A DNA stretch of 64,000 bases from Candidatus Lustribacter sp. (GCA_965277805.1 OZ255842.1:3424001-3488000); one strand, 5' to 3'. Positions 33,613 through 62,758 are shown, counted from the first letter of the stretch. The notes: generated from the letters alone by a model not told the origin. Numbers and translations are program-made.

Positions 33613-33665
33613 AGAGACCCTCCTTCCGAGCGGCAACTGCCATTCCCGTCTCGAAGGCTGCGGCG

Positions 33666-34631
33666 ATGCGACGAATCGATTTCTGCCGGCGAGCCGGTAC
33701 CGCACTTGTTGCCGGCGTGGCCGGTGATCCGGCGAGCGTGCTTGCTCAGACAGCCTTGCAGCCGCTGCGGATCGTCACCGCGCCGACCGAGATCCCGATC
33801 AGCATGATCAACGCGCACGATCTGGGTTACTTCAAGGACGCCGGCATCGACGCGCAGATCATCTCGCTCAGCAATGGTCCGGCCGGCATCGCCGCGGTCC
33901 TGTCGGGTTCGGCCGACATCGGCTTCGCGAGTTCGCTCTCGCTCGTGATCGCTTACGACAAAGGCCTGCCCGTGACGCTGGTCATGGGCACTGACCTCCA
34001 CAGCGCAACGAATCCGGTCCAGGGCATTTTTTTGGCCGCCGCGTCCTCGCCGCTGCGCACAGGCAAAGACTTCAACGGCAAGACCATCAGCGTCCCGGGG
34101 CTCGGGGGTACGCAGAACTACGCCGTCCGGTCGTGGGTCGACGCCGGCGGCGGCGATTCGTCGACATTGCGCTTCGTTGAGATTCCCAACTCCTCGGTAC
34201 CGGCAGCGATCACTACCGGGCGTATCGACGCGGGCACGACCGACGCGCTAACGCTGCACTCAACCGAATCGCGCGCGCTGCGCGAAGTTGCCAACGTGTA
34301 CAATGCGATCGCACCGAAATTCCTCACCGGCGTCTGGTATGCGACGGCGCCGTGGGTCGAACAACATCGCGAACTCACGCAAACGTTCATCAAGGTGTTT
34401 CAGCGCTACTCGGCTTGGGCCAATAGCCACCCCGCCGACGAGGTCCGTTTCTATTCGAAACAAAGCGGCCTCTCGATCGACGATCTGCAAGCGACGCCGC
34501 GGGCCGTGTTCGCGCCCACCTTAACGCTCGAATCACTGCAGCCGGTCATCGACGTTGCCTTCCGCTACGGCGCGATCAAGCGCCGGTTTCCGGCCAACGA
34601 CTTACTGAGCCCCGCATCGCGCGCGAGATGA
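33666..34631 (+). CDS. NitT/TauT (SsuA/NMT1-like) substrate-binding protein, Tat-like leader
   Basis: MRRIDFCRR leader; GYFKDAGID, AAVLSGSADIG, DFNGKTISV, FVEIP. Confidence 0.9.
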   Translation: MRRIDFCRRAGTALVAGVAGDPASVLAQTALQPLRIVTAPTEIPISMINAHDLGYFKDAGIDAQIISLSNGPAGIAAVLSGSADIGFASSLSLVIAYDKGLPVTLVMGTDLHSATNPVQGIFLAAASSPLRTGKDFNGKTISVPGLGGTQNYAVRSWVDAGGGDSSTLRFVEIPNSSVPAAITTGRIDAGTTDALTLHSTESRALREVANVYNAIAPKFLTGVWYATAPWVEQHRELTQTFIKVFQRYSAWANSHPADEVRFYSKQSGLSIDDLQATPRAVFAPTLTLESLQPVIDVAFRYGAIKRRFPANDLLSPASRAR

Positions 34632-34660: not shown

Positions 34661-35173
34661 ATGCGATATTTTACGGCATTTTTGGTCTTTTGCGCGGCGC
34701 TGACGCAAGCCGCGACAGCTCAAACCCCTCCGCCCCAGAACGGCGGTCAAATCGCGATTACCGGCTGGCGCGTCGAGTGCGATTCGCAAGCCGCGGGCTT
34801 GAATTGCCGCGTCACGGATCAAGCAGCGCAACAGAGCACGAACGTCGTCGTTGCCGGACTCGGCGTCACGCTGGCCGCCGATACGAAGAAGCCCGTCCTG
34901 ACGATTCAAGTTCCGCTGCAGCTGGCGGTCTCCGATCCGATCACCGTGAGCAGCGATAACATGTCGGAACCGTTTCCCGCGCTGACGTGCGACCGCCCCG
35001 GTTGTTTTGCGCGCGCGCCGATCACCGACGGCTTGCTCGAGAAAATGCGTACGAGCAAACAGCCCCTGAAGATCGCCTACAACCTGATCAATCCCACCAC
35101 GCTGGCGAAACAAACGATCACGGTGTCGCTGCCGCTCGACGGCTTCGCCGCCTCGCTCGACAAAATCAAGTAA
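34661..35173 (+). CDS. ialB: invasion-associated locus B (IalB) family protein
   Basis: Signal peptide; GWRVEC...CRV, VPLQL, TCDRPGCFA, LLEKMR, LPLDGFAASLDKI. The start could instead be 34628 (ATGA overlap). Confidence 0.8.
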   Translation: MRYFTAFLVFCAALTQAATAQTPPPQNGGQIAITGWRVECDSQAAGLNCRVTDQAAQQSTNVVVAGLGVTLAADTKKPVLTIQVPLQLAVSDPITVSSDNMSEPFPALTCDRPGCFARAPITDGLLEKMRTSKQPLKIAYNLINPTTLAKQTITVSLPLDGFAASLDKIK

Positions 35174-35175
35174 GC

Positions 35176-38100
35176 TTAGAAGCGCTGTTCCAGGTTGATT
35201 GAGGCCGTGAGGCCTTGCGAGCGCCCGGACACACGGTAGTCGCCGCTCAGGCGAACGTTCATCTGTCCGGGACGCTGGTTGGTCGACAGCGACGGCGCGA
35301 CGTCGAAGGCGGTTTTGTCGAACTTCGACGGCAGCTCGAAGTTCTGCACGCCCGCCGGAGCGCCGATCAGCGATCCGGCGACGGTCGTCTGCGGGTTGCC
35401 CAGCGACTGCGTCATCCCCAGGCGCAGCGACGGCGTGAAGCCGGTGTTGCCGATGCCGGCCCGCGGATCGATGTTGATGCCGGCCTGACCCGCGGTGAAC
35501 GTATCGCCGTGGCCGGCGAGATTTGCGGTTAGGAAGCCGGCGTTGCCGTGTTCCAGATCGTTCATCACATTGATGCGCGTCGCGCTGAGGTCAACGTACG
35601 GCGTGAATGCGGTCGTCGAGCGGTCGTACTCGTGCGCTAACCGCAGATGCGTGCCGATCACGCTCGACTGGAGCCGGCCCAGCGAGACGATCGACGGATC
35701 TGGATAGTTCACGTTGCGCTGCGTACTGTCGTCTTCCCAGCCGTAGGTAACGCCGGCGTTCACCGAGGTGCCGTGCGCCGTGCGGTGTCCGACGAACAAG
35801 CCGCCTTGCAGCAGATCGCCCGACGCCGACGCGACGCCGCCGTTGAGCGTCATCGAGTGCTGTTCGTACTGGATGCCGCCGCCCAGCGACCAGCCGCGGC
35901 CGATCGCCTGTTCGGAACCATAGTTGAACCCGGCCCCGAGCGATCCGACGCCGACGGTATTTGCCGTGACGGATTGGTTGAGCGCGAAGCTATCGAGGCT
36001 GCCCCATTCACACGAGCTCGCGATGTATCCGCAGCTCATCATTCTGTTGGCGAACTGCTGGCTCGAGGTCAGCGTGGTGAATTCGATCGGCGCGAGCGAT
36101 CCGGGACTGATGTGCGAGTACAAGTTCGCCAGCGTCGCACCGTCGGGGATCGCGAAGATCGAGGAGATCAAGTTACCGAACGCGGTGTTGCTGCCGGCGT
36201 TCTGGATGGCGGCAAGATAGTTGCCGAACATCGAGCGGGAGTAGCCGAGCGAGTCGCCGTCGAGGCCGAAGTTCGGCGAGTAGTTGATCGTCCACGTCAG
36301 GCGCAGATCGGTGTTGTTCACGGTGCTGAGCGCGTAGGTTGCGATCGCCGACACCGGCGCGTTCAGAACCACGTTCGGCGCGGTGAGGCCGCCTTGCGCC
36401 GTGACGATATCAAACTTGTACGTGCCCGGCAGCGCGGTCGGAATGTTCAGCAGCGTCAAGTCGATGTTGCCGCCGATTGAGGCGACCGCGTTCAGGTTGA
36501 GCTGGTCGGCGATCTTGTGGCTGAGGTCGAGATCGACGAGGCTGTCGCCGCCGAATTGCACGAAGCTGCCGGTCAGCGTCGTCACGCCGACGTTGCTCGT
36601 GCCGCCGACCGAGAACTGACCGAGGTTCGTGAACGTGCCGGTGCCCAGACCCAAGGTCGTGCCGGCAACGTAGCCCTTTGTGTTGGTGAGATCGCTCTTG
36701 CCCGTCCCGAGCGCGAGCGAACCGACGAGATAGCCGTTGTTCTGGATCGTGTTGTTGCCGTCGGTATCGGAGACGGCGGTGCCGTTCAGTCCGTCGGAGG
36801 TCATGATCGTGCCGTCGTTGATCAGCATGTTGTTCGCGCCGCCGACGAGCCGCACACCGACCGCACCCGGGCCGGCTTGAATCGTCGTGCCGTCGGTGAT
36901 CGTCACCGTGACGTTGCCGCTGTTGCTGGTTGCACTCGCGTCTTGCGGCGTTACCGTCGTGTTGTTGATGCCCACGCGCGAGCCTTGCACGGTGCGCACG
37001 TTGGTCGCGACCGATTGCGTGGCGGCGACCGTACCGCCGGTGCTCTGCGCGACGACGCCGTCCGAACCGGTGCCGAGCGCGACGACCGAACCGATCACGG
37101 TGACGTTGACGTTGCCGCCCTTGCCCTGACCGCCGACCGATTGCGCGAAGATGCCGTCGGCGTTCGCACCGCTCGTCGTGATGTTTCCGGTCTCGACGAC
37201 GTTCACGTCGCCGCCGGCGCCCGCCGCACCGGCGCTGCCCGCGAGTGCCAGCGCAGCAACTGCGGACGTCGCGGTCAAACTGTTGCCGCTGCTGCCCGCT
37301 ACGCCGCCGCCTCCGCCGATCGATTGCGCAAAGATGCCTTCCGCGCCCGCGCCCGCGGTAACGATGTCGCCGGTGTTGTTGACCGTGACTTTGCCGCCGT
37401 TGCCGCCGCCGCCGCCGGTGTTGCCGACCGCGATGCCCGAACCGAGGTCGAGCTTGCCGAGACCGCGATTGATGTTGCCGGCCGCACCGCCGCCGCCGCC
37501 GATCGATTGCGCAAACACGCCGTAGCCTGCGGCGCCGCCGGTCGTGATCATGCCGGTGTTCGTCACGGCCACGTCGCCGCCGTTGCCGGACGAGCCGCCG
37601 CTGCCGCCGATACCGATGCCGCCCTTGACGCCGGTCGAACCGGCACCGCCGACACCGCCGCCGCCGCCGACCGACTGCGCGAAGATCGCTTGCGCACCGT
37701 CGCCGGTCGCGAAGAGCGCACCGCTGTTGGTCACGTTGACGTCGGCGCCGTTACCGCTGCTGCCGCCGCTGCCGCCGACGTTGAGCTGCAAGTTCTGATA
37801 CACGCTCTGCTGTACGGATTGCGTTGCCGGCGCGGGCGTCGTTGCAGCTTCCGTTTGCGCACCGCCGACCGTTTGTTCGCTGCGGCGCGAACCATCCGAC
37901 GACGGCACACTGACGCCCGTGATGCCCACGAGCGCGTTGAGTGCCGGGCCGATCAAACCGTTGTTGCCGTCGCCACCGGTGCCGCCGCCGCCACCGACCG
38001 ATTGCGCGAAGATGTCGGCCGCGTCGCCGCCGCTCGTCGAGATCTGGCCGCCGTTGGTGACGGTGACCGCGCCGCCGTTGCTCGCGCCGGCACCGCTGCC

Positions 38101-41100
38101 GCCGATCGATGCAGCGAGATTCCAATTCTGCGTACCGCACGTCGTACTGCCCGCATCGCACTTCTTCGCATCGCTCAGTTGCGTGAACGCGCGCGAGCCG
38201 CCGCCGTTGCCGCCGCCGCCGCCGATCGATTGCGCGAAGATGCCCATCGCGCCGTCGCCGATCGTGACGATCTGACCGGTGTCGTGCGTGACCGTAACGG
38301 TGCCGCCGTCGTTGCCGGTGCCGCCGCCGCCGCCGACCGCCATCGCAACGCTGACGTTTGCGCCGCCTTTGTCGGTGTTGCGCAGCGACGAGCCGGCGAA
38401 CGAGAAACCGCCGTTGCCGCCGCCGCCGCCGATCGATTGCGCGAAGATGCCGTGCGCTTCGGCGCCGATCGTCAACACGTTGCCGTCGGCGTTGACGGCG
38501 ACGTTGCCGCCGGTGCCGCCGGCGCCGCCCGAACCGCCGACCGAGACGCCGATCTCAGCCTGTGCTTTGTTGCTGCCCGAACCCGCGCCGGCCGCGAACG
38601 ACATGCCGCCGTTACCGCCGCCGCCGCCGATCGATGTCGCCTCGATGCCGTACGACTTCGTGCCGGTGATGACGTCGGTCGTGGGATCGTAGCTGCCGGT
38701 GAGAACATCGCCGCTGTTGTTCACGGTCACGTCGCCGCCGTTGCCGGCGCCGCCGCCCGAACCGCCGAGCGCGACCGACATGTTCATGCCGCTGATGCCC
38801 GCCGCCACCGACAAACCGCCGCGACCGCCGCCGCCGCCGACCGACTCCGCATCGATGCCGGCCGCGTTGTCGCCGACCGTCGACACGGCGCCGGTGTTGT
38901 TCACGTTGACGTTGCCGGCGTTGTTGCCGGTGCCGCCGCTGCCGCCGAGGCTCAGCGAGAGATTCTTGTTCGCGGCATTGTTCGAAACGTCGGCCGTTAC
39001 CGAAACGCCGCCGTTGCCGCCGCCGCCGCCGATCGATTCCGCGTTGATGCCTTCGGCGTTATCCGTGTTGGTGATGACGTTGCCGGTATTCGTGACGTTG
39101 ACGTTGCCGCCGACGCCGCCGGTGCCGCCCGTTCCGCCGAGCGCAACCGAAACGTTCACCGCGCCCATCGTCGGCCCGATCGCGACGCCCAGCGCGAAGC
39201 CGGCGTCGCCGCCGCCGCCGCCGAGCGATTGCGCATAGATACCGGTCGACGCCGCGCCGCTGGTATAGACTTCGCCGTCGTTCTGCACGGTGACGTCGCC
39301 CGCCGCACCGCCGGTGCCGCCCGTTCCGCCGAGCGCAACCGCGACGTGCTTCGTGTCGGTGCCGGTGCCGGCAGCAAGCGTCGCCGCAAAACCGCCGGTA
39401 CCGCCGCCGCCGCCGACCGATTGCGCGTCGATGCCGTACGCGCCGTCACCAGAGGTCGAGATACCTCCGGTATCGTGGGTGACCGTCACGTCACCGCCGG
39501 TGTTGCCGGTGCCGCCCGAACCGCCGAGCGAGAGCGCGACCGTGTTCACGTCGGTCGTCGTCTTCGCGACCGAACCCGAGACGCTGCCGCCGCCGTTGCC
39601 GCCGCCGCCGCCGATCGACTGCGCGAAGATCGCGTGCGCGCCGTTGCCGCTGGTGACGACGTTGCCGCTGTCGTCGACGTTCACGTCGCCGCCGGTGCCG
39701 CCCGCAGCGCCGGTGCCGCCGACCGAAATCGCGACTTCCGCTTTCGCATCCGTGCTCGAACCGGCGTCGGCCGAAATTGCGAGGCCGCCGTTACCGCCGC
39801 CGCCGCCGAGCGATTCCGCGAAGATGCCGTACGAATTCGTGCCGGTGCCGTTCGTTGCATCACCGGTACCGACATCGCCCGTGTTGGTCACGCTGACGTT
39901 GCCGGCGTTGCCCGCATCGCCGCCGCTGCCGCCGAGGCCGAGCGCGATGTTCATGCCGCCGAGCGCACCCGACACCGCAAGCCCGCCGTTGCCGCCGCCG
40001 CCGCCTTGCGATTGCGCGGAGATGCCGATCGCGTTGTCGCCCGTCGTCACGACCGTACCGCTGTTGGTCACGGTGACGCCGGATGCATCGTTGCCGGTGC
40101 CGCCGCTGCCGCCGAGGCTGAGCGCGAGTTGCTTCGCGGTTTGCGAGGTCGAAATGCCGGCCGCAACCGCGAAGCCGCCGTTACCGCCGCCGCCGCCGAG
40201 CGACTGCGCGAAGATGCCGGTCGAATTATCCGTTGACGTCGAGACGATCCCGGTGTTGTTTACGGTGACGGTGCCGGCGCTGCCGCCGCTGCCGCCGTTG
40301 CCGCCGAACGACATCGATGCGTTCGTCGCGCCCGCGCCGTTGCTGAGATCCACGGCTAGTGCGAAGCCGCCGTCGCCGCCGCCGCCGCCCTGCGACTCGG
40401 CCACGATGCCGTTCGCCGCAGAACCGGTGGTCACGACGTTGCTCGTGTTCGAAACGCTGACGTTGCCGGCCGCGCCGCCGTCGCCGCCGGTGCCGCCGAT
40501 GTCGATCGCAACGTGCTTCGTGCTCGCACCGGTGCCGGCCGCGAGCGTGCCGCTGAAACCGCCGGTGCCGCCGCCGCCGCCGAGCGACTGCGCGTAGATG
40601 CCGTTCGCACCTTGACCGAGCGTGTCGATATCGCCGGTGTCGTGCGTGACCGTGACGTTGCCGGAATTCGTGCCGGCACCGCCGCCGCCGCCGAGCGCGA
40701 TGTCGAGCGCGTTGGCGTTCGACGTTCCGGCCGACGCGGCGAATCCGGCGCCGCCGTTACCGCCGCCGCCGCCGACCGACTGTGCGAAGATGCCGTGCGC
40801 GTCGGTGCCGTTGGTGATGATCACGCCGCTGTCGGCGACGGTGACGTCACCGCCGGTGCCCGCTGCGCCGCCGCTGCCGCCGATCGACAAACCGATTTGC
40901 GCGCTGCCGTTACCGGCGTCGGCGCCGATCGAGAGCCCGCCGTTGCCGCCGCCGCCGCCGAGCGATTGCGCGAACACGCCGTACGAGTTCGTGCCGCTGT
41001 TGGCCGTCGCGTTACCGGTCTCGATGTTGCCGGCGTTCGAGACGTTCACGTTGCCCGCGTTGCCCGCACCGGCACCGCTGCCGCCGAGTGCGAGGTTGAT

Positions 41101-44100
41101 GTTCGAACCGACGAGCGAACCCGAGATCGCCATGCCGCCGTTACCGCCGCCGCCGCCGAGCGACTCGGCCGCAATGGCCGCCGCAGCGTTGCCGGTGGTG
41201 ACGATCGTGCCGGCGTTCGTGACGCCAACCGTGCCCGCGTCGTTGCCGGTGCCGCCCGCGCCGCCGATGCTGACGCCGAGCTGCTTCGACGATGCCGCCG
41301 CGGTGATGTCCGCTGCAACCGAGAAGCCGCCGTTGCCGCCGCCGCCGCCGATCGATTCGGCCAGCACGCCGAGCGCGTTGTCGCCGGTCGTTGAAATCGT
41401 GCCGCTGTTCGTCACGTTGACGTCGCCGGCGGTACCGGCGCTACCGCCTTTGCCGCCGAGCGCGAGCGAAACGTTCGTCGAGCCGCTCGACGTGCCGAGA
41501 GCCATCGCGAGACCGAAGCCTGCGTTACCGCCGCCGCCGCCGATCGATTCCGCATCGACGCCGGTCGCCGCTTGTCCGGTGGTCACGATGTTGCCGGTAT
41601 TGCCGACCGTGACGTTGCCCGATGCGCTGCCGCTGCCGCCGGCGCCGCCGACGGTGATCGCGACGTTCTTCGCATCGGCGCCGGTGCCCGCAGCGAGCGT
41701 GCCGCTGAAGCCGCCGTTACCGCCGCCGCCACCGATCGATTGCGCGAGCACGCCTTCCGCGCCTTGACCGCTCGTCGCGATGTCGCCGCCGTGCGTCACG
41801 CTGACGTTGCCGCTGGTGTTGCCCGCGCCGCCGCCGCCGCCGATCGCAATCGTCAGCGCGATGTTCGCACCGCCGAGCGATGCATCGCCGGCGAACGACA
41901 TGCCGCCGTTGCCGCCGCCGCCGCCGAGCGATTGCGCGAAGATCGCGTGCGCGCCGGCGCCGGACGTCACGATCGTGCCGTTGTCGGTAACGCCGACGTC
42001 GCCGGCCGTGCCGCCGCCGCCCGCCGCGCCGCCGAGCGCGAGCGATGCTTGCACTTGATCGCTGCCGGCCGATGCCGCACCGGAGAACGATGCGCCGCCG
42101 TTACCGCCGCCGCCGCCGAGCGACTCGGCGAAGATGCCGTACGAATCGAGACCGGTGCCGTTCGCTGCATTGCCGGTGCCGATGTCGCCGGTGTTGTTCA
42201 CCGTGACCGCGCCCGCGTTGCCCGCATCGCCGCCGCTGCCGCCGAACGCGAGCGTGAGGTTCATGCCGCCGAGCGCGCCCGCGATCGCCATGCCGCCGCG
42301 ACCGCCGCCGCCGCCGATCGATTCCGCATCGATCGCCGCCGCGTTGTCGCCTTGCGTCACGATCGTGCCGCTGTTCGTTACGCCGACCGTACCGGAATCG
42401 TTGCCGGTGCCGCCGCTGCCGCCGAACGCGAGCGAAAGTTGACGCGCGCTCGTGACGACCGATGCATCGGCCGCGATCGACATGCCGCCGTCGCCGCCGC
42501 CGCCGCCGATCGACTGCGCGAGAATGCCGAGCGCGTTGTTGCCTTGCGTCGAGATGCCGCCGGTGTTGTTCACGCTGACGTTACCCGACGTGCCGCCGCC
42601 GCCGCCGCTGCCGCCGAATGCGAACGAAAGATTCGTCGAGCCCGACGACGGACCGATCGACGCCGCCAACCCGAAGCCGCCGTCACCGCCGCCGCCGCCG
42701 AGCGAAAGCGCATCGACGCCGGTGGCGGCGCTGCCGGTGGTGATGATGTCGCCGGTGTTCGTGACGCTGACGTCGCTCGACGCGCTGCCCGCACCGCCGG
42801 CGCCGCCGAACGTTGCGCTGATCGATTTCGATTCCGCACCGGTACCGGCCGCAAGCGCGCCGCTGAAGCCGCCGTTACCGCCGCCGCCTCCGATCGACTC
42901 CGCATCGATGCCGTACGCGCCGTCACCCGACGTTTGAATTCCACCTTGATGCAACACGGTGACCGTGCCGCTGGTATTGCCCGCGCCGCCGCTGCCGCCG
43001 AACGCGAGCGTCATCGTCGTATTCGCGCCGCCGGCACTGCCCGCGAGCAGCGAACCGGCGAACGTGAAGCCGCCGTTACCGCCGCCGCCGCCGAGCGATT
43101 GCGCGAAGATGCCGTGCGCCCCATCGCCGCTCGTCACGATGTTGCCGTTGTCGTTGACGTCGACGTTGCCCGCAGTGCCTGCGCCGCCGCCGGTGCCGCC
43201 GAGCGCGACGCTGATTTCCGCCGACGCATCGGAACCGGCGCCGGCCGATCCGGAGAACGCCATGCCGCCGTTACCGCCGCCACCGCCGAGCGACTGCGCG
43301 AAGATGCCGTACGACTGCGTGCCGCTCGTCGTGCTGCCGGTGCCGATGTCGCCGGTGTTCGTTACCGAAACGTTGCCGGCGTTACCCGCATCGCCGCCGC
43401 TGCCGCCGAGCGCAATGGTGAGATTCGTTCCGCCGATCGCGCCCGAAATCGCCATGCCGCCGTCGCCGCCGCCGCCGCCGAGCGATTCCGCATCGATGCC
43501 GCTCGCGGTGTTGCCCACGGTAACGATCGTGCCGGTGTTGGTGACGGAAACGTTGCCCGCGTCGTTGCCGCTGCCGCCGTTGCCGCCGAGCGTCACGCCG
43601 AGTTGTTTGCCGGTCGGCGAAACGCTGATCGCCGCGGAGATCGCCATGCCGCCGGTGCCGCCGCCGCCGCCGATCGATTGCGCTTGAATGCCGTTCGCGT
43701 TATCGCCGTACGTCGAAAGCGTGCCGGTGTTCGTGACGCCGACATCGCCGGCCGTGCCGCCGGTTCCGCCGCTGCCGCCGAGCGCAACCGACAGATCCGT
43801 TGCGCCGGTCGACACGCCGAGTTGCGCGCTGATGCCGTAACCGCCGTCGCCGCCGCCGCCGCCGATCGATTGTGCGACGATCGCCGATGCTGCGAGACCG
43901 TTCGTGTAGACTTGTCCGTCGTTGTTGACGGTGACGTCGCCGGATGCCGCACCGCTGCCGCCGCTGCCGCCGACGCTGATGCCGATGTTCTTCGCATCCG
44001 CACCCGCCGACGCTGCGAGCGTGCCGGAAAGCCCGCCGGTGCCGCCGCCGCCGCCGATCGATTGCGCGAGAATGCCGATCGCTTGATCGCCGGTCGTCGA

Positions 44101-53100: not shown

Positions 53101-56100
53101 GCCGGCCGATCCGGCCACGCTGAAGCCGCCGTCGCCGCCGCCGCCGCCGATCGACTGCGCTAAGATGCCGTCCGACCGCGAGCCGTCCGTCTGAATGATG
53201 GTGCCCGCCTCGGTAACCGAGACGTTGTTGGCGGCGCCACCGCCGGCGCCCTTACCGCCGAAGCCGAGACTCAACGCGGCGCCCGAACCGATGCTGCCGG
53301 CGATGCTGAAGCCGCCCGAACCGCCGCCGCCGCCGAGCGACTGCGCCTCGATGCCCGACGAGTCATCGCCGGTCGTGCCGATGCTGCCGGTGCTGCTGAC
53401 GGTCACCGTCGAGGCGGTGCCGCCCACCGAGCCGCTGCCGCCGAAGCTGAGGTTTGCGGTCGATCCCGCCGCCAGGCCGCCCGAGATCCCGAAGCCGCCG
53501 TCGCCGCCGCCGCCGCCGATCGACTGCGCCAAGATGCCGACGGAGTGCTCGCCGTCGGTCGTGATCTGTCCGGTACTGGCGACGAACACGGACAGGCCCG
53601 CTCCGCCGTCGCCGCCGCTGCCGCCGAAATTGACGTTGCCGCCCGCCGATAGCGTCGCCGAGGCCGCGACGCTGAAGCCGCCGTCGCCGCCGCTGCCGCC
53701 GATCGACTGGGCCCGAATGCCGTCGGAGTCGTCGTCCTGGCCGCTGCCCGTACCGGTTGCGATCGCGCCGTAGCTCTCCACGCTCACGGCAGCCGCATCC
53801 GAGCCGGCCGCTCCGGCGCCGCCGAAGCTCGCGCCGAGGGAGTAGCCGCCGCTCGCATTGGCCGCAACGCTGAAGCCGCCCGAGCCGCCGCCGCCGCCGA
53901 TGCTCAAGGCCGTGATGCCGTCCGACCGATCGCCCGACGTCGTAATGTTCGAGAGAACCGTATTGAGGTACGTGCCGGGGCCGGTCGATATCGTTCCGTT
54001 ATTGACGGTCACCGCCCCCGAGGTGGCGCCCGTTCCGCCCGCGCCGCCGAAGGACGCGCTCAGGCCGGCGTCGCCGGACGCTGTCCCGGCAATGCTGAAG
54101 CCGCCGCTGCCGCCGCCGCCGCCGACCGACTCCGCGTAGATACCCGATGAGTCATTGCCCAAGGTCGTGATGGAGCCGTAGGTGGCAACGGTGACCGCGC
54201 CGCCTTGCGCGCCGGTCCCGGCACCGCCGCCGAAGGTCAGGCTCGCCGATGCTCCGCCGCTGAGCGCACCCGCGGCGCTGAAGCCGCCGTTGCCGCCGCC
54301 GCCGCCGAGCGACTGCGCGAGGATGCCCGCCGAGTTGTCGCCGGCCGTGCCGATGTTGCCGACGCTGAACACCGAGACGCCCATGGCGACGCCGCCGCCC
54401 GACCCGTGTCCGCCGAAGCTCAGTGAACCGGACGCGTACGTGCTGGCGCTGCCGTCGATGCTGAAGCCGCCGTTACCGCCGCCGCCGCCGATCGACTGCG
54501 CGATGATCCCGCTCGAGGAGTTGTCGTCGGCGATGCCGTTGTCGACCAGCGCCGGAAGCGGGCCGCCCTCGAGCGACGTGGCGTACGGATTGTCGCCGGT
54601 ATAGATGTTGCTGTAGTTGGTGACCGTGACGGTACCGGCATTGCCGCCGGCCGCGCCGGAGCCGCCGAAGCTGCCGCTGATCGCGCCGTTCGCCACCGCG
54701 CCGGCCACGCTGAAGCCGCCGTTGCCGCCGCCGCCGCCGATCGATTGGGCGACGATGCCGGACGAACGCGAGCCGTCGGTCATGATCGTTCCCTCGAACG
54801 CCGTGCTGCCGTTGCCCGCGACGACGTTGCCGGCCGACGATCCCGTGCCGCCTGCACCGCCAAATGAAAGCGCTGCCGACGCGCCGGTGCTGAGGCCGCC
54901 GGCCACGCTGAACCCACCGTTTCCACCGGCGCCGCCGATGGATTGTGCAAGGATCGCGTCCGAATCGTCGCCGTAAGTGCCCATGTTGCCGACGTTGGTA
55001 GCGGTCACCGCCATGCCCTTACCGCCCGATGCGCCGCTGCCGCCCAGCGAGAGGCCGGCGCCGGCGTCGATGGTCAGGTTGCCGGCGATGCTGTAGCCGC
55101 CGTTGCCGCCGCCGCCGCCGATCGATTGCGCCTCGATGCCGTTGGCCTGCTCGCCCGCCGTGAAGATCGAACCGACGTTGGTGACGGTGACGATGCCGGC
55201 GTCGTCGCCGGAGCCGCCCTTACCGCCGATCGAGCCGGCAGCGCCGACCCCGAACGACGCGGATCCGGCGATGCTGAAGCCGCCCGAGCCGCCGCCGCCG
55301 CCGAGCGACTGCGCTTGAATGCCGTTGGAACTGTCGCCGTTGCCGGTGAACTTGCCGGTGGCCGGGTCGATGCCGGTCATGATGTTCGTGAAGCTCGTGA
55401 CCGTCACGTTGCCGGCGGTCGATCCGGTGCCGCCGCCGCCGCCGAGGGACGCGGCCAGCGACGCTTCACCCGAGCCGGCCGCGCCCACGCTGAAGCCGCC
55501 GTCGCCGCCGCCGCCGCCGATCGACTGCGCGAGGATACCGTCGGACCGCTGGCCCTCGGTGGCGATCATCGCTTCGCTGCCCGCGGTGCCGCTCGAAACG
55601 GTCACGGCACTACTAAATGAACCAGGACCGCCGGTGCCGCCGAACGAGGCGGCGAGTGCCGCACCCGCGCTCACCGCTGCCGAAATGCTGAAGCCGCCCT
55701 GACCGCCGCCGCCGCCGATCGATTGGGCGAGGATGCCGGCCGAGTCGTCGCCGGTCGTGATCACCGAGCCGGTGCTGCTAACGGTCACCGAGCTCGCCTG
55801 ATTACCCGTGCCGCCGGCGCCGGCGAAACTCAGGCTGCCGCCCGCCGCGGCCGCCAGCGAGCCGGCGACGGAGAATCCGCCGTTGCCGCCGCCGCCGCCG
55901 ATCGACTGGGCAGCGATGCCGTTGGCGCCCTCGCCGTTGGTCTTGACGGTGCCGTTGCTGTTCACCGTGACGTCGAGGCCCTTACCGCCGCCGCCGCCCG
56001 AACCGCCGAATCCGACTGCCGCGCCGGCCGTGGCCGAAAGATCGGCACCAACCGCGAAGCCGCCGTTGCCGCCGCCGCCGCCGATCGATTGCGCTAAAAT

Positions 56101-59046: not shown

Positions 59047-62000
59047 GGCGTCACGACGATGTTGATCGGCAACGTATGCGCGACGCCGCTCGGTCCGGTT
59101 GCAACGAGGCTGATGTTATACGTGCCCTGTTGCGTGTTGCCCGACGGTCCCGACGACGTTCCGGGCACGAGCGTACCGGCAATGACCGTGCCCGGCGCAA
59201 TTGCCGACGGCGTCACGACGCCGGCCGGCAGCTGATTCGTCGAGACCGCGCCGACTTGCCCCGTACCGGCGACGATGTCGCCCGTGCCGTTTTGCAGATT
59301 CGGTGTGCCTTGACCGGGGCCGGGCGTTCCGCCGTTGCCGCCGGTTGCCGGCGTCGGCGTCGGGAGCGACGGACCGCTGCTGCCGAAACCATTACCGCTG
59401 CCGACACCGGGCAACGTGCTTCCGCCACCACCGCCGCCGCACGCCGCCAATACGGCGACGCTCAAGATCGCTGCGCCCATCGCAACTTTGCGATTGCGGC
59501 GCCACAAGAATGCGAACAGCGTGAAGATGCCGCCGGCAATCGGAAGCGCGGCATGGCGAATCGCGCGTGCCATCGGCGTGACGGAACCGCTGTTCGATCC
59601 CGTCGTCGTCAGCGTCACGTTCACGCTCACGGGCGTCGTACCGGAAACCGTGACCGGCGATGACGTGCACACGGCTCCCGTCGGCAGTCCGGAACACGTG
59701 ACCGTTACCGTACCGTTGAATGAAGACGCGCCCGTCAACGTGACCGGAATCGTCATGCTCTGTCCGGCGCCCAGCGTTTGCTGGTTCGCGATCGTCGAAC
59801 CGATGGCGAAATCCGTGACGTTGCCGTTGGTGACGTTGAACGTAACACCCGACGACATCGACGATTGATTTTCGGAATCGCCACCGTAATTTGCGGTGAT
59901 CGTATGCGATCCGGCAGCTAGCGACGTGGTGGTCAACGTTGCGCGCGCGTGCCCGTCGAGCGACGCCGTGCCGATCGTCGTGCCGCCGTCCTTATATGTA
60001 ACGGTGCCGGTCGGGACATCGGGGACGCTGCCGGAGATCGCCGCAGTGAACGTTACCGGCGATCCGAGTGCAGCGCTGCTCGACGTCGCCGAAAGCGCCG
60101 TCGTCGTTGCGAACTGTGCAACCACGAACCCGACGATCGCTGAAGTGCTCGCACCATCATTGCTGTCGCCGCCGTACGTCGCGGTCAAATTGTGCGTGCC
60201 CGCTCCGCTGAACTGCGTGGTAATCGCTGCCGAGCCGCTGGCGAGCGTTTGCGTCGAGCCGATCTGCGTGCCGCCGTCGAAAAACTTGACGGTGCCTCCA
60301 TTGGGAGGCGATGAGCCCGTAACCGTCGCCGTTAGCACGACGTTCTGGGTCGGCGCAGCGGACGACGGTGCAACGCTCAATCCGGTCGAGCTCAAGCTCG
60401 TGCCGACGTTCTCGATCACGGATCCCTGAGCGGCCGTATTGTTCGTGTCACCGCTATACGCGGCGGTAATCGTGTACTGACCCGTGTTGAGGGTCGACAG
60501 CGACACGCTGGCCGAGTTGCCCGAGAGCGCCGGCGTCCCGAGCGGCGTTCCGCCGGGATTTTTCGTGAACGCAACCGTTCCCGTAGGCGACGCGCCGGTA
60601 CTCGTCACCGTCGCGGTGAAGGTGACGTTCGTGAACGGCGTCGTCGGGTTCGGGACCGCAACAACGTTCGTCGTTGCCGTCGCTTTCGAAGCGGTGAAGG
60701 TCGCAGTCGCCGTTGACCCGCCGTCTGCGCCACTATACGTTGCAACGATCGTGTGCGACGTGCCGGACAGATTGCTCACCGTCACCGATGCTTGGCCGCC
60801 CGAGAGGGCCGGGTTTCCGATGCCGCTGCTGTTGTCGGTGAACTGTACGTTGCCGGTCGGCGTCGAGCCGTCCGAAGCGGTGACGACGGCGGTGTAGGTC
60901 GGATTCGTTCCGAGGAACGGCGTCGCCGGCGAAATCGTCAGTGCGGTCGTCGTCGACGCGTTGCCGACGACCACGGTCTGCGCCGATGACCCCGAGCCGT
61001 TGAAACTCGTCGTCGCAGCGTAGGTCGCGGTGATGCTGTGACTGCCGGTCGGCGTCGCGGTCCAATTGTAGGTCGCTTGCCCGGCGCCGTTGACCGGTCC
61101 GGTACCCAGCGTCGTCGCGCCGTCGGAGAACGTCACCGTTCCGGTCGTCACGGGTGTCGTCGTCCCACTTATGGAGACCGTGGCCGTCAGCAGGTCCGGG
61201 GAGTTCAACCCGGGCGCCGTCGTTGCTGCGGCGAGCGTCGTCGCCGTATTGGCGGGCGTGATGGTGAACGCGCCCATCGTGCCGTGCGATGCGGCGAAGT
61301 TGATCGAACTCGAATAGCAGGCGGTGATCGTGTGCGAACCCGCGCCGAGTTGCGTCGTGACCAGCGTCGCCGTTCCGTTGGCGAGCGGCGCATTTCCAAG
61401 TACGTTCGACGAGCAATTGCTCGAGCCGTCGGCGAACGCAACGCTGCCGCCGGGGACGCCCGCCGATGACGTCACGCTCGCCGTGAGCGAAACGTTGGAA
61501 CCGGCCGTCGTCGTCGGAGGCGGCGTGCCGGCCGTCGTCGTGGTCGCCGCCTGGTTGATGGTCACGGTGAATGGCGACGCGGCGCTGGACGCGGAAAACT
61601 GCGAGACCATCGGCGGCACGTACGTCGCCGTGATCGAGTGCGTCCCGCCGCCGAGTGCGGTCGTCGCTACCGAAGCGCTGCCGGCGCTAAGCGGGCCCGA
61701 TGCGATGACCGTGACATTCGGACTCGTGCCTTCAGTAAAGTTGACGGTGCCGCTCGGCGTGCCGCCCGAGCTCGTCACGGTCGACGAGAGCGTCACGCTG
61801 CTTCCGAACGTCTGCGTTGTCGGATTCGCGCTGCCGGTGGTCGTGGTGCCCGTTCCAACCGTCACGTTGATCGTGGTCGCAAACACGTACGGCGAGCCGT
61901 CGGAGTATTGGAACGCAATTGCGTGAACGCCGGCTTGCGAAATGCCGGTCGTCGTGAACGTCATGACGCCGCCGGCTCCCACCGCGACACCGGTCGAGAG

Positions 62001-62615
62001 CGTCGTGCTGGTGAGGTTGTCGAAAATCGAAATGTTTCCGGTGGCCACGGCGGCGCCGGTTGCGGGCGACGTCGCGTGACACGTCAACGTTACGCTTTGC
62101 GACGGCGCGATCGTCGAGGATGACGCCGAACATGCGATGTTCACCGGCATGTCGACCGTATAGCTGATCGACGTGGAGCTGGCGGCGTTGTTCGCGTCGC
62201 CGGCATACGACGCCGTGATCGTGTGCGCTTCGGAGATCAGCGTCGTGGGCGGATTCGATGCGCTCGGAGCCGGCTGCGTGCCGGCCGACAAACTCGTTGT
62301 CGCGGGCGTCGTGAAGACGCCGCTGGCGACCGCGCCCGACCCGAGCGTCGTCGACGTCGTCGTGTCGGTAATCGTCGTCGTGGCCGTTCCGGTAACGACG
62401 ACGCCGGTCGACGTGACCTTGGTCGTCGCGGTGAACTTGACCGACGTGCCGTAGCCGTCGGGCGATCCCGGAGTGGCGGTGAGCGTCGTGGTGGTGGGGA
62501 CCGCCGCTGCCGAAGCGATTGCCGTCTGCGAGAGGCACGCTAGGGTGAGCGCAAACAAAACCCTGCATAGAGTTTCGCAAAACCGCGTAAGCGATTGCGT
62601 CGAAACCAAGAACAC
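59043..62615 (-). CDS. Ig-like (Big_3_5-type) repeat surface protein with internal hydrophobic segment and lipobox
   Basis: About nine TTT.L...G.H.ITA.Y.GD domains, then LPIAGGIFTLFAFLWRRNRKVAMGAAILSVAVLAACGGGGGG. Stop overlaps the autotransporter start (GTGA). Exact start uncertain (GTG 62615 or TTG 62609). Confidence 0.88.
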   Translation of the reverse strand: MFLVSTQSLTRFCETLCRVLFALTLACLSQTAIASAAAVPTTTTLTATPGSPDGYGTSVKFTATTKVTSTGVVVTGTATTTITDTTTSTTLGSGAVASGVFTTPATTSLSAGTQPAPSASNPPTTLISEAHTITASYAGDANNAASSTSISYTVDMPVNIACSASSSTIAPSQSVTLTCHATSPATGAAVATGNISIFDNLTSTTLSTGVAVGAGGVMTFTTTGISQAGVHAIAFQYSDGSPYVFATTINVTVGTGTTTTGSANPTTQTFGSSVTLSSTVTSSGGTPSGTVNFTEGTSPNVTVIASGPLSAGSASVATTALGGGTHSITATYVPPMVSQFSASSAASPFTVTINQAATTTTAGTPPPTTTAGSNVSLTASVTSSAGVPGGSVAFADGSSNCSSNVLGNAPLANGTATLVTTQLGAGSHTITACYSSSINFAASHGTMGAFTITPANTATTLAAATTAPGLNSPDLLTATVSISGTTTPVTTGTVTFSDGATTLGTGPVNGAGQATYNWTATPTGSHSITATYAATTSFNGSGSSAQTVVVGNASTTTALTISPATPFLGTNPTYTAVVTASDGSTPTGNVQFTDNSSGIGNPALSGGQASVTVSNLSGTSHTIVATYSGADGGSTATATFTASKATATTNVVAVPNPTTPFTNVTFTATVTSTGASPTGTVAFTKNPGGTPLGTPALSGNSASVSLSTLNTGQYTITAAYSGDTNNTAAQGSVIENVGTSLSSTGLSVAPSSAAPTQNVVLTATVTGSSPPNGGTVKFFDGGTQIGSTQTLASGSAAITTQFSGAGTHNLTATYGGDSNDGASTSAIVGFVVAQFATTTALSATSSSAALGSPVTFTAAISGSVPDVPTGTVTYKDGGTTIGTASLDGHARATLTTTSLAAGSHTITANYGGDSENQSSMSSGVTFNVTNGNVTDFAIGSTIANQQTLGAGQSMTIPVTLTGASSFNGTVTVTCSGLPTGAVCTSSPVTVSGTTPVSVNVTLTTTGSNSGSVTPMARAIRHAALPIAGGIFTLFAFLWRRNRKVAMGAAILSVAVLAACGGGGGGSTLPGVGSGNGFGSSGPSLPTPTPATGGNGGTPGPGQGTPNLQNGTGDIVAGTGQVGAVSTNQLPAGVVTPSAIAPGTVIAGTLVPGTSSGPSGNTQQGTYNISLVATGPSGVAHTLPINIVVTP

Positions 62616-62732
62616 CCTCTCGAATTAACGCACGAAAATGGGCGCCGCATTGAACCGAATGTCGTGGGTATCGTGCTGCGCCCGCTATCGTGTTAGGTTG
62701 CCTTCGGACCAAAGCCTTTGAGCTTTGTAAGC

Positions 62733-62758
62733 GTAGTGTAAGAGGTTTGTTACACTAC
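62733..62758. promoter_or_regulatory. perfect 9-bp inverted repeat upstream of the Ig-autotransporter operon
   Basis: gtagtgtaa-gaggtttg-ttacactac within an AT-richer 324-nt intergenic region. Confidence 0.6.

What the first reader, a model, noticed from the sequence alone, without database searches (positions are those of the whole stretch)
34661..62758. Candidate undescribed surface system: split-Ig lipo-anchored protein + 7956-aa Gly-rich autotransporter + IalB
Seen: 28 kb encoding three exported proteins; the Ig gene and autotransporter are coupled by GTGA (59043-59046); IalB converges with a 2-nt gap (TAAGCTTA); a palindrome sits upstream. Established: classical autotransporters rely on Bam/Tam rather than dedicated partners, and the molecular function of IalB is unclear. 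Inference: a giant adhesin or filament with two accessory proteins (envelope anchor and periplasmic helper).
Basis: partly seen in the sequence, partly recalled or inferred. Interest (0 to 1): 0.8.

Follow-up and report, generated by a model that had tools for sequence, protein, structure and literature searches.

The report
Giant autotransporter paired with IalB
A soil bacterium of the little-known phylum Eremiobacterota encodes a nearly 8,000-residue glycine-rich surface fibre whose gene sits tail to tail with its only IalB gene, a pairing kept across many genera, which hints that the long-mysterious IalB protein works with this kind of secreted adhesin, while the neighbouring Ig-repeat protein is only a local add-on.

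Summary
Three exported proteins are encoded: IalB (34661-35173, +), a 7,956-aa classical autotransporter (35176-59046, -) and a 1,190-aa Big_3_5 Ig-repeat protein (59043-62615, -). The 2-nt tail-to-tail junction, the GTGA overlap and the upstream palindrome are all present.

The three-part-system reading holds only in part. The genome (phylum Eremiobacterota) has one IalB gene and one autotransporter barrel, and they abut. In a 401-genome phylum sample, IalB occurs in 25 genomes. It lies convergent and directly beside an autotransporter barrel in 13 of them, 1-2 kb away in 3, and unlinked in 9. Flanking genes differ between genera, so the IalB-autotransporter junction is what is conserved.

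The Ig protein sits upstream only in this genus, 2 of 11 loci examined. Three loci carry an unrelated beta-propeller lipoprotein there; the other six carry unrelated genes.

The passenger is a confidently modelled beta-solenoid. It belongs to a large family without a Pfam model (2,693 cluster representatives, up to 7,216 aa among the best 150).

IalB beside trimeric autotransporters in Hyphomicrobiales is already in print, so this is a new variant of a known kind.

The Ig protein has a conserved internal stop-transfer helix followed by a lipoprotein signal peptide, the only internal one in the genome.

The scan had not noted an IalB-autotransporter pair before.

The parts
34661..35173 (+). IalB-family periplasmic protein: 170 aa from this start (an alternative ATG lies at 34628), Sec signal peptide ending AATA/Q, four invariant Cys
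   Evidence: PF06776 E 3.3e-19. A profile of 23 orthologues hits PDB 3dtd (Bartonella IalB) at E 2.5e-12. Invariant residues are G35 W36 C40 C49 P85 L86 C110 G114 C115 F162. It is the only IalB gene in the 5.53-Mb genome.
35171..35178 (.). Tail-to-tail junction TAAGCTTA: IalB stop, 2-nt gap, autotransporter stop
   Evidence: In 13 directly adjacent pairs measured, the space between the stop codons is -2, -2, 2, 2, 5, 6, 6, 9, 18, 57, 64, 131 and 259 nt.
35176..59046 (-). 7,956-aa classical (type Va) autotransporter gene, GTG start
   Evidence: It holds the only PF03797 barrel in the genome. The protein ends ...NLEQRF.
35281..35982 (-). C-terminal outer-membrane beta-barrel (translocator) domain
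   Evidence: PF03797 covers residues 233-465 of the last 499 aa.
37147..58086 (-). Passenger: about 110-115 Gly-rich repeats of 61-66 aa (GIxAQSIGGGGGxGG...GGxGGxG...VxVxNxGxIxTxG), modelled as a beta-solenoid
   Evidence: Motif count and spacing are. The AF2 model of a 371-aa six-repeat block has pLDDT 88 and pTM 0.82. Best structural matches include autotransporter passengers: Vag8 Z 11.7, pertactin Z 9.8, UpaB Z 9.3. No Pfam or NCBIfam family matches.
58963..59046 (-). Autotransporter signal peptide (VKHKSFAVTVAVVVATLIAACSPRAAQA/NP) followed by a conserved Cys...Cys loop
   Evidence: Read. Six of the nine homologue N-termini printed show an SPase-I-like Ala-x-Ala site and four of them a C[ST][LV]...[YWF]x[IV]xC loop, none with a lipobox, so the LIAAC lipobox-like string is probably not used.
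59043..59046 (-). GTGA overlap of the Ig-gene stop and the autotransporter start
59043..62615 (-). 1,190-aa exported protein with 8 Big_3_5 Ig-like repeats and an unusual C-terminal module
   Evidence: PF16640 E 2.7e-113, 8 stretches. Six orthologous proteins including the window's own database copy, five from other contigs; all six aligned sequences, 47-89% identical to the window's protein, keep the C-terminal module.
59439..59549 (-). Internal membrane hairpin: stop-transfer helix (ALPIAGGIFTLFAFLW), RRNRK, then a lipoprotein-type signal (VAMGAAILSVAVLAAC) followed by GGGGGG
   Evidence: Coordinates are. C1059 and the G6 run are invariant in 6 orthologues. The same LA[AG]C-GGG signature marks 23 N-terminal lipoprotein-like starts in this genome, and this is the only clearly internal case. 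Codon 1037 is TTG, and two orthologues have Met there.
62733..62758 (.). Perfect 9-nt inverted repeat with an 8-nt spacer, 118-143 nt upstream of the Ig gene start; an operator-like site
   Evidence: It is unique in the genome and conserved in G003.

Best explanation
The core of the locus is a two-gene module.

The first gene encodes a giant classical (type Va) autotransporter. Sec exports it, and its C-terminal 12-strand-type barrel is inserted into the outer membrane by the genome's Omp85/TamB machinery. Its roughly 7,000-residue Gly-rich passenger folds outside the cell into a long, rigid beta-solenoid fibre, of the order of 100 nm, most likely an adhesin or spacer.

The second gene is the genome's single IalB gene, placed tail to tail against the first. 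It encodes a small disulfide-bonded periplasmic protein. I infer that it acts as an accessory factor for this autotransporter in the periplasm, either holding the very long unfolded passenger or docking on the translocator region.

The upstream, translationally coupled Ig-repeat protein is a genus-specific, co-expressed envelope protein and not part of the conserved module. It has its own oddity: a stop-transfer helix followed by an internal lipoprotein signal peptide. This would either leave a membrane hairpin or let signal peptidase II cut the protein into a membrane-anchored Ig stalk and a lipidated 130-residue tail.

Shown: gene structures, families, passenger fold model, conservation of the pairing.
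Inferred: binding, chaperone or anchor role, cleavage, fibre length.
For: Families: barrel PF03797, IalB PF06776 with a match to PDB 3dtd.

Passenger: the model has pLDDT 88, and its top structural matches include the autotransporter passengers Vag8, pertactin and UpaB.

Own genome: 1 IalB, 1 autotransporter barrel, 0 YadA anchors, 1 Omp85 and 2 TamB matches.

Near relatives: the same 3 of 100 genomes carry the autotransporter homologue and IalB, adjacent in each.

Phylum sample of 401 genomes: 23 have both IalB and a barrel, 2 have IalB only, 10 have a barrel only, 366 have neither.
- 13 of 25 IalB genes are convergent and directly beside a barrel. One of the 13 is G277, an unpublished genome.
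- 3 more lie 1.1-2.1 kb from a barrel.

Genomes with a barrel but no IalB: in 8 of the 9 examined the autotransporters are not Gly-rich.

Every IalB-linked autotransporter fetched carries the S[IVL]GGGGG passenger, at sizes from about 900 to 7,956 aa.

Flanks on both sides differ between genera.
- On the IalB side: NMT1, ornithine cyclodeaminase, racemase, aldehyde dehydrogenase, squalene synthase, phage integrase.
- On the autotransporter 5' side: Big_3_5, XdhC/MobA, Sortilin/BNR, NMT1, a SpoIIE sensor, a propeller lipoprotein.

The pair stays together at up to 75% (IalB) and 81% (autotransporter C-terminus) residue difference, and the two distance matrices correlate (Mantel r 0.90, 0 of 2000 permutations reach it).

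Independent precedent in print: IalB genes (188 homologues) commonly lie next to trimeric autotransporters in Hyphomicrobiales (bioRxiv 10.64898/2026.01.22.700529, passage read). Brucella batA-ialB is reported as a bicistronic unit (PMC7688925, passages read).
Against: The two genes are convergent, so they are not co-transcribed. Nothing here shows co-expression or contact.

9 of 25 IalB genes have no barrel nearby.
- In 6 loci inspected (G203, G252, G225, G189, G395, G274) no Gly-rich ORF lies in the 20 kb fetched.
- G266's IalB is 260 nt from a contig end.
- G314 and G250 were not fetched.

IalB therefore persists without a neighbouring autotransporter. The three such genomes checked (G203, G252, G225) do carry a second-subfamily Gly-rich autotransporter elsewhere.

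The same passenger repeat occurs in Acetobacter, Pseudomonadales and Deltaproteobacteria loci without IalB within 10 kb. A betaproteobacterial genome with a related autotransporter has no IalB at all.

In Hyphomicrobiales IalB is in 141 of 141 genomes at 1-10 copies. The preprint itself calls the adhesin link possibly incidental.

Related genomes are not independent, so the counts overstate the support.
Confidence: 0.55

Rival explanations
1. Hitch-hiking. IalB is a general envelope protein with no direct role in autotransporter biogenesis. It arrived in Eremiobacterota on the same transferred DNA as the autotransporter and has stayed next to it by inheritance.
For: Both genes are rare and patchy in the phylum and confined to one family, f1, which fits acquisition. 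A phage-type integrase lies beside IalB in G337. The genes are convergent and not an operon. IalB survives alone in 6 inspected loci. It is ubiquitous and multi-copy in Hyphomicrobiales irrespective of adhesins. The Mantel correlation shows co-inheritance, not co-function.
Against: Everything around the pair has been reshuffled between genera while the junction is kept, often with 9 nt or less between the stops. Non-Gly-rich autotransporters in the phylum occur without IalB. An unrelated class of autotransporters in another phylum shows the same neighbour (papers cited above).
Confidence: 0.3
2. The Ig-repeat protein (envelope anchor), the autotransporter and IalB (periplasmic helper) work as one dedicated machine.
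For: The Ig gene's stop overlaps the autotransporter start (GTGA). The same order is kept in sister genome G003. A conserved palindrome lies upstream. In three other genomes a different exported lipoprotein occupies the same coupled upstream slot.
Against: A Big_3_5 gene is upstream in only 2 of 11 loci, both in genus g1. Six loci have unrelated or cytoplasmic-type genes there. Outside G000, the 401 sampled genomes gave only weak matches (E about 1e-6, 7 genomes) to the Gly/Pro-rich part of the Ig protein's C-terminal module, and no orthologue. The propeller lipoprotein shares no significant similarity with it (best BLASTP E 4.6).
Confidence: 0.1
3. Artefact: the giant gene is a mis-assembled repeat array or a decaying pseudogene.
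For: The G003 copy shows several frame breaks (8 TGA inside one match). Repetitive genes are prone to assembly error.
Against: The frame is unbroken over 23,871 nt, with signal peptide and barrel in place. DNA repeat units are only 70-79% identical. Independent genomes hold intact homologues with open frames of 7,905, 6,005, 5,958, 5,917 and 5,285 aa.
Confidence: 0.03

Closest known systems
Classical (type Va) autotransporters with beta-helical passengers, e.g. Bordetella Vag8 and pertactin, E. coli UpaB, Fusobacterium Fap2
   Same: Signal peptide, beta-solenoid passenger, C-terminal PF03797 barrel ending in Phe. The passenger model aligns to Vag8 (Z 11.7, rmsd 2.4 A, 145 residues), pertactin (Z 9.8) and UpaB (Z 9.3).
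   Different: The passenger is about 7,000 residues of one 61-66-aa Gly-rich repeat with no Pfam or NCBIfam model. Foldseek found no PDB match at E <= 0.001. The host is Eremiobacterota. A conserved convergent IalB neighbour is present.
The unnamed 'AQSIGGGGG' Gly-rich autotransporter family of Pseudomonadota and others
   Same: Same repeat and period in an Acetobacter orientalis locus (3,183 aa, 38 motifs), a Pseudomonadales locus and a Deltaproteobacteria locus. 2,693 cluster representatives match the repeat profile, 1,267 of them at E <= 1e-30. Look-alike clusters in the ESM Atlas are unnamed.
   Different: At 7,956 aa this member is longer than any of the best 150 representatives (2,087-7,216 aa). 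The proteobacterial loci examined lack an adjacent IalB.
IalB next to trimeric autotransporters in Hyphomicrobiales (Brucella BatA-IalB; Bartonella IalB, PDB 3DTD)
   Same: Same IalB family beside a type V secreted adhesin gene. The link was noted for 188 homologues (bioRxiv 10.64898/2026.01.22.700529, passage) and for Brucella (PMC7688925, passages).
   Different: There the partner is a trimeric (type Vc) adhesin, the genes lie on the same strand, and IalB is multi-copy. Here the partner is a monomeric type Va protein, the genes are convergent, IalB is single-copy and the phylum is different.
Dedicated helpers of trimeric autotransporters: TpgA-AtaA (Acinetobacter Tol5) and the enterobacterial trimeric lipoprotein (named in PMC7688925; SadB-SadA is my recollection)
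   Same: A small envelope protein encoded next to a giant type V adhesin and proposed to aid its biogenesis or anchoring.
   Different: Those helpers are outer-membrane lipoproteins or peptidoglycan binders co-transcribed with the adhesin. IalB here has an SPase-I-type signal, shows no other Pfam domain and is transcribed from the opposite strand.

Membership tests
Classical autotransporter (type Va) | C-terminal outer-membrane beta-barrel translocator domain (Pfam PF03797) | tested here: met
   E 5.1e-19, 69.5 bits against a cut-off of 26, profile positions 11-242 of 255. Confirmed by genome search.
Classical autotransporter (type Va) | N-terminal Sec signal peptide | tested here: met
   By inspection only, with no predictor run: KHK n-region, hydrophobic core, AQA/NP site. 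Six of the nine homologue N-termini printed show comparable Ala-x-Ala sites.
Classical autotransporter (type Va) | Beta-helical or solenoid passenger | tested here: met
   AF2 model pLDDT 88, all-beta with a regular strand pattern. VIA-align matches to Vag8, pertactin, UpaB, Fap2 and Pet. Z values of 8-12 count as middling for repeats by the tool's own note.
Classical autotransporter (type Va) | Passenger displayed on the cell surface through Bam/Tam | not testable with these tools
   Only the presence of 1 Omp85 and 2 TamB matches in the genome was shown.
IalB family (PF06776) | Match to the family profile above the curated cut-off | tested here: met
   69.7 bits against a cut-off of 22.1. 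A profile of 23 orthologues hits PDB 3dtd_A at E 2.5e-12.
IalB family (PF06776) | Exported small protein with conserved cysteines | tested here: met
   Signal peptides with AxA-type sites in the 19 orthologues printed. C40, C49, C110 and C115 are invariant in 23 sequences. Export itself was not tested.
Dedicated autotransporter helper (TpgA/SadB type) | Co-transcribed with the adhesin gene | tested here: not met
   The genes are convergent in all 13 directly adjacent pairs.
Dedicated autotransporter helper (TpgA/SadB type) | Physical complex with the autotransporter | not tested
   No experiment was possible. The complex prediction gave no verdict (see Tried and rejected).
Big_3_5 Ig-like repeat proteins (PF16640) | Tandem Big_3_5 domains | tested here: met
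   8 stretches, E 2.7e-113.
Bacterial lipoprotein (for the internal signal in the Ig protein) | Positively charged n-region, hydrophobic h-region, lipobox L-A-[AG]-C | tested here: met
   RRNRK-VAMGAAILSVAV-LAAC-GGGGGG. The Cys and G6 run are invariant in 6 orthologues. The form is the same as in 23 N-terminal cases in this genome. Its position is internal (residues 1039-1059), which is atypical.
Bacterial lipoprotein (for the internal signal in the Ig protein) | Lgt/Lsp processing and lipidation | not testable with these tools
   This needs mass spectrometry or globomycin assays.
   Residues 931-1022 match Big_3_5 profile positions 3-64 of 88 only at E 0.4. The single-sequence model has pLDDT 46.

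The most novel reading that the evidence does not exclude
IalB is a dedicated periplasmic accessory factor of type V secreted adhesins in general. It is found with monomeric type Va fibres in Eremiobacterota (this work) and with trimeric type Vc adhesins in Hyphomicrobiales (in print). An earlier scan note, e1-4568203, which I did not check, reports it beside a two-partner (type Vb) block. If so, the classic 'invasion' phenotype of Bartonella IalB would be an indirect effect of adhesin biogenesis, and classical autotransporters would not always be 'auto'.
Probability: 0.3. Interest if true: 0.75.

Novelty: new variant of a known kind. Interest (0 to 1): 0.5.

Why it matters
IalB has been cited as an invasion factor since the 1990s without a molecular function, and classical autotransporters are taught as needing no dedicated partner.

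This work adds a second sighting of IalB beside a type V adhesin, phylogenetically remote from the first. The phylum is different, the autotransporter class is different, and IalB is single-copy and otherwise almost absent there. That turns a link dismissed as possibly incidental into a testable hypothesis.

It also supplies small natural test pairs. G031, for example, has an autotransporter of about 900 aa with its own IalB.

Two further points matter:
- A very large Gly-rich passenger repeat family has no domain model.
- The Ig protein's internal lipoprotein signal may be a rare natural case of post-export splitting of an envelope protein.

Tried and rejected
1. Complex prediction of IalB (residues 21-170, 23-row alignment) with the autotransporter's last 499 aa (15-row alignment) returned 'no answer', ipSAE 0.00 in two runs, and the controls were not run. 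This is no evidence either way.

2. A single-sequence AF2 fold of the Ig protein's last 318 aa was too poor to judge the split-domain idea (pLDDT 46).

3. Foldseek against the PDB gave no match at E <= 0.001 for the passenger model. VIA-align was needed.

4. NCBIfam gave nothing for any of the 4 proteins or pieces submitted. Pfam at E <= 1 gave nothing for 300-400-aa passenger pieces.

5. An adjacency survey of IalB against autotransporters in Hyphomicrobiales was abandoned. 141 of 141 genomes have IalB at 1-10 copies and the match list is cut at 150 rows.

6. A test for insertion or deletion of the block within genus g1, using the flanking genes, was inconclusive. Both flank proteins belong to families with about 36 to over 150 paralogues per genome. 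The right-flank orthologue is on a separate small contig in G007 and was not found in G002, whose best match is 54% identical.

7. The idea that the autotransporter itself is a lipoprotein (LIAAC in its signal peptide) was rejected. None of the nine homologue N-termini printed has a lipobox, and six show SPase-I-like Ala-x-Ala sites.

8. My 3-sequence HMM of the autotransporter C-terminus missed the barrels in G284 and G256 that Pfam finds. Barrel counts therefore rest on PF03797.

9. Literature. Searches for 'Eremiobacterota' with 'autotransporter' found 0 papers. 'IalB' with 'autotransporter' found 26. A search requiring at least 3 of 'IalB', 'periplasmic', 'chaperone' and 'type V secretion' listed only one paper of ten that holds 'IalB' (PMC3557214, not read) and, by the titles and abstracts listed, none proposing IalB as a type V chaperone.

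10. Earlier scan notes. None held both 'IalB' and 'autotransporter', and no look-alike stretches were found.

Full report
**What is there.**
The window holds three genes for exported proteins exactly as described.
- IalB: 34628/34661-35173 (+). It matches Pfam IalB at E 3.3e-19.
- Autotransporter: a 7,956-aa ORF at 35176-59046 (-).
- Ig-repeat protein: a 1,190-aa ORF at 59043-62615 (-). It matches Big_3_5 in 8 stretches at E 2.7e-113.

The Autotransporter beta-domain (PF03797) scores E 5.1e-19 against the end of the giant ORF. It appears only when the last 499 residues are scanned alone. In the 1,499-aa C-terminal piece the hit was lost. NCBIfam names none of the proteins.

The junction features are all present.
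- TAAGCTTA, two stop codons 2 nt apart on opposite strands.
- The GTGA stop/start overlap.
- A perfect 9+9 inverted repeat at 62733-62758. It is unique in the genome and kept in the sister genome G003.

**The giant protein.**
It is 29% glycine. It carries 108 matches to the [AE][QEL]S[IVLQA]GG[GSAQ]GG motif, at modal spacings of 61, 64 and 66 residues.
- Neighbouring DNA units are only 70-79% identical, so this is an old, diverged array and not an assembly artefact.
- I aligned 11 in-register six-repeat blocks. The AlphaFold2 model of one block has pLDDT 88 and pTM 0.82, and is all-beta with five strands per repeat.
- Foldseek found nothing significant in the PDB.
- The exhaustive aligner placed the autotransporter passengers Vag8 (Z 11.7, rmsd 2.4 A, 145 residues), pertactin (Z 9.8) and UpaB (Z 9.3) among the top ten matches. 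Fap2 (Z 8.4) and Pet (Z 7.4) rank lower, and other beta-solenoids are interspersed. The tool rates such Z values as middling for repeats.
- I read the passenger as a beta-solenoid. If a repeat makes two rungs of 4.8 A, the fibre is roughly 100 nm long. That length is an inference, not a measurement.

The repeat family is not rare.
- A profile of the blocks finds 2,693 cluster representatives, 1,267 of them at E <= 1e-30. The best 150 are 2,087-7,216 aa long.
- The same motif and period occur in Acetobacter, Pseudomonadales and Deltaproteobacteria loci.
- Atlas look-alikes are unnamed clusters.
- Neither Pfam nor NCBIfam models the repeat.

**Organism and envelope.**
Record titles of related loci place the genome in Candidatus Eremiobacterota. 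The genome is 5.53 Mb in one contig. It has one Omp85 match, two TamB matches, one autotransporter barrel, no YadA-type anchor and one IalB gene.

**IalB and the autotransporter.**
*Near relatives.* Among 100 near relatives, the same three genomes have a homologue of the autotransporter C-terminus and an IalB gene, side by side in each. The other 97 have neither.

*Phylum sample.* In an even sample of 401 genomes, IalB is in 25 and PF03797 in 33, all within one family. 23 genomes have both, 2 have IalB only, 10 have a barrel only, and 366 have neither.

*Position.* By coordinates, IalB is convergent and directly beside a barrel in 13 of 25 genomes: G000, G020, G031, G149, G190, G277, G334, G337, G348, G353, G354, G382 and G384. 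G277 is an unpublished genome.
- In 3 genomes (G256, G284, G302) IalB lies 1.1-2.1 kb from a barrel. In G284 the gene in between is an MFS transporter gene.
- In 9 genomes no barrel is nearby.

*Gaps.* Measured stop-to-stop gaps in 13 directly adjacent pairs are -2, -2, 2, 2, 5, 6, 6, 9, 18, 57, 64, 131 and 259 nt. Those 13 pairs are 11 from the sample plus the loci L019 and L022.

*Passenger type.* All IalB-linked autotransporters fetched carry the same Gly-rich motif passenger, whatever their size. Open frames are 970 aa in G031 and 7,905 aa in G020, and range from 2,408 aa (G149) to 6,005 aa (G284) elsewhere.

*Autotransporters without IalB.* In 8 of the 9 barrel-only genomes I examined, the autotransporters are not Gly-rich (9-15% Gly, 0-1 motifs). 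The ninth, G361, has a second Gly-rich subfamily. The tenth, G249, was not fetched.

*Surroundings.* The genes around the pair differ from genus to genus.
- On the IalB side: an NMT1-type binding protein (G000), ornithine cyclodeaminase (G031), a racemase (G020), aldehyde dehydrogenase (G149), squalene/phytoene synthase (G190) and a phage-type integrase (G337).
- So the junction itself is what is conserved, at up to 75% residue difference in IalB and 81% in the autotransporter C-terminus. The two distance matrices correlate at r 0.90, and 0 of 2000 permutations reach that value. This shows co-inheritance, not co-function.

**Results against a strict partnership.**
- The genes are on opposite strands, so they are not an operon.
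- Six inspected loci have IalB with no Gly-rich ORF in the 20 kb fetched: G203, G252, G225, G189, G395 and G274. An MFS gene was verified beside IalB only in G203. G266's IalB is at a contig end. G314 and G250 were not fetched.
- The three such genomes I checked (G203, G252, G225) carry a second subfamily of Gly-rich autotransporter elsewhere. It is about 2,900-3,000 aa with 32-38 motifs. In G203 and G252, and in IalB-less G361, a conserved 470-500-aa gene follows it; the G203 copy gives weak esterase-type matches.
- Of the 10 loci found with the autotransporter C-terminus across species-representative genomes, the 3 Eremiobacterota loci have the adjacent IalB. The 7 proteobacterial loci have none within 10 kb.
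- One betaproteobacterial genome with a related autotransporter has no IalB at all.
- In Hyphomicrobiales IalB is in 141 of 141 sampled genomes, at 1-10 copies.

**The Ig-repeat protein.**
Its gene precedes the autotransporter only in G000 and its sister G003, where the autotransporter also spans about 24 kb. That is 2 of 11 loci examined.

The other upstream genes are:
- a conserved lipoprotein in G020, G337 and G284, 39-40% identical to each other, with weak Arylesterase-type hits in two of them; the sequence repeats look like a beta-propeller to me; its end overlaps the autotransporter start in G020;
- XdhC/MobA-like genes (G149);
- an ORF with no family (G190);
- a Sortilin/BNR protein (G334);
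- an NMT1-like protein (G384);
- a MASE4-PAS-GAF-SpoIIE sensor (G031).

Outside G000, the 401-genome sample gave only weak matches (E about 1e-6, in 7 genomes) to the Gly/Pro-rich part of the Ig protein's C-terminal module, and no orthologue.

The Ig protein is odd in its own right. After the Ig repeats come a hydrophobic helix, RRNRK, a second hydrophobic stretch ending LAAC, six glycines, a Gly/Pro linker and a short strand-like tail.
- The Cys and the six glycines that follow it are invariant, and the rest of the module is largely conserved, in six aligned sequences down to 47% identity. This is not a frameshift fusion.
- In this genome the LA[AG]C-GGG signature marks 23 N-terminal lipoprotein-like starts. 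The Ig protein holds the only clearly internal one.
- Codon 1037, just before RRNRK, is TTG, and two orthologues have Met there.

Three readings remain open: a membrane hairpin, cleavage by signal peptidase II into two chains, or an internally initiated small lipoprotein. Whether the tail completes an Ig fold is unresolved.

**Comparison with what is known.**
The autotransporter meets the defining features of type Va that I could test.

IalB is a bona fide family member. A profile of 23 orthologues matches the Bartonella IalB structure 3DTD at E 2.5e-12.

IalB next to adhesin genes is in print.
- A 2026 preprint reports IalB genes (188 homologues) commonly linked to trimeric autotransporters in Hyphomicrobiales, but suggests the link may be incidental (10.64898/2026.01.22.700529; I read the passage, and the supplements are closed).
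- A 2020 paper describes Brucella batA beside ialB and cites a report that they are bicistronic (PMC7688925; passages read).

I found no paper on Eremiobacterota autotransporters. By the titles and abstracts listed, I found none proposing IalB as a type V chaperone; one listed paper holding 'IalB' was not read. An earlier scan note (e1-4568203), which I did not check, mentions IalB in a two-partner-secretion block.

What is new here is a second setting remote from the first: a monomeric type Va partner, a different phylum, a convergent layout, and a single-copy IalB that is otherwise almost absent from the phylum.

**Verdict.**
The giant autotransporter is a new, very large member of a big unannotated family. 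The IalB pairing is a real, conserved two-gene module whose functional meaning is inferred (my odds about 0.55). The Ig protein is a lineage-specific neighbour. The complex prediction gave no verdict and is not used as evidence.

Noticed in passing
window 59439-59549 (within the Ig gene): An internal stop-transfer helix, RRNRK and a lipoprotein-type signal ending LAAC-GGGGGG. It is conserved in 6 orthologues and is the only clearly internal lipobox of this type in the genome. A TTG codon (Met in two orthologues) sits just before RRNRK, so a nested small lipoprotein is also possible.
   Followed up: partly
L014:7870-9708 (G020), L042:2190-4301 (G337), L047:7495-9480 (G284): A conserved lipoprotein of about 500 aa mature length (LAGC-GGGGS lipobox) lies immediately upstream of the giant autotransporter in three genomes. 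The three copies are 39-40% identical to each other. Two of them give weak Arylesterase-type hits, and the repeats look like a beta-propeller. The gene overlaps the autotransporter start in G020. It shows no significant similarity to the window's Ig protein.
   Followed up: partly
L058:2107-12210 (G203), L059 (G252), L060 (G225), L065 (G361): A second subfamily of Gly-rich motif autotransporters: about 2,900-3,000 aa, 32-38 motifs, ending KFDYK/KFDYR plus one hydrophobic residue. In G203, G252 and G361 a conserved 470-500-aa gene ending WTDSSTCGPMTY follows it; the G203 copy gives weak esterase or peptidase S9 hits. No IalB lies beside these.
   Followed up: partly
L041:2326-3678 (G337): A phage-type integrase gene lies directly beside IalB in one genome, hinting that the IalB-autotransporter block can sit on a mobile island.
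   Followed up: no
window 33666-34631 and 62940-63983; genomes G002, G003, G005-G007: The flanking NMT1-type and Peripla_BP_6-type substrate-binding proteins belong to enormous paralogue families in this genus. At E <= 1e-30 there are about 97 to over 150 and 36-95 matches per genome respectively.
   Followed up: no
window about 40795-44271 (residues about 4925-6084 of the autotransporter): In the C-terminal half of the passenger, six-repeat blocks of 384-389 aa start with nearly the same sequence. This suggests a higher-order six-repeat super-period from block duplication.
   Followed up: partly
G003:C9:326203-350180 (L017, L056): The sister genome's copy of the giant gene is broken into several frames, with 8 TGA inside one match. 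I did not determine whether this is sequencing error or decay.
   Followed up: no
window 32554-34631: A TauD-family dioxygenase gene and an NMT1/SsuA-like binding-protein gene lie just upstream of IalB. The binding-protein gene ends 30 nt before the likely IalB start, so IalB may be read through from a sulfonate-utilisation-type cluster.
   Followed up: no
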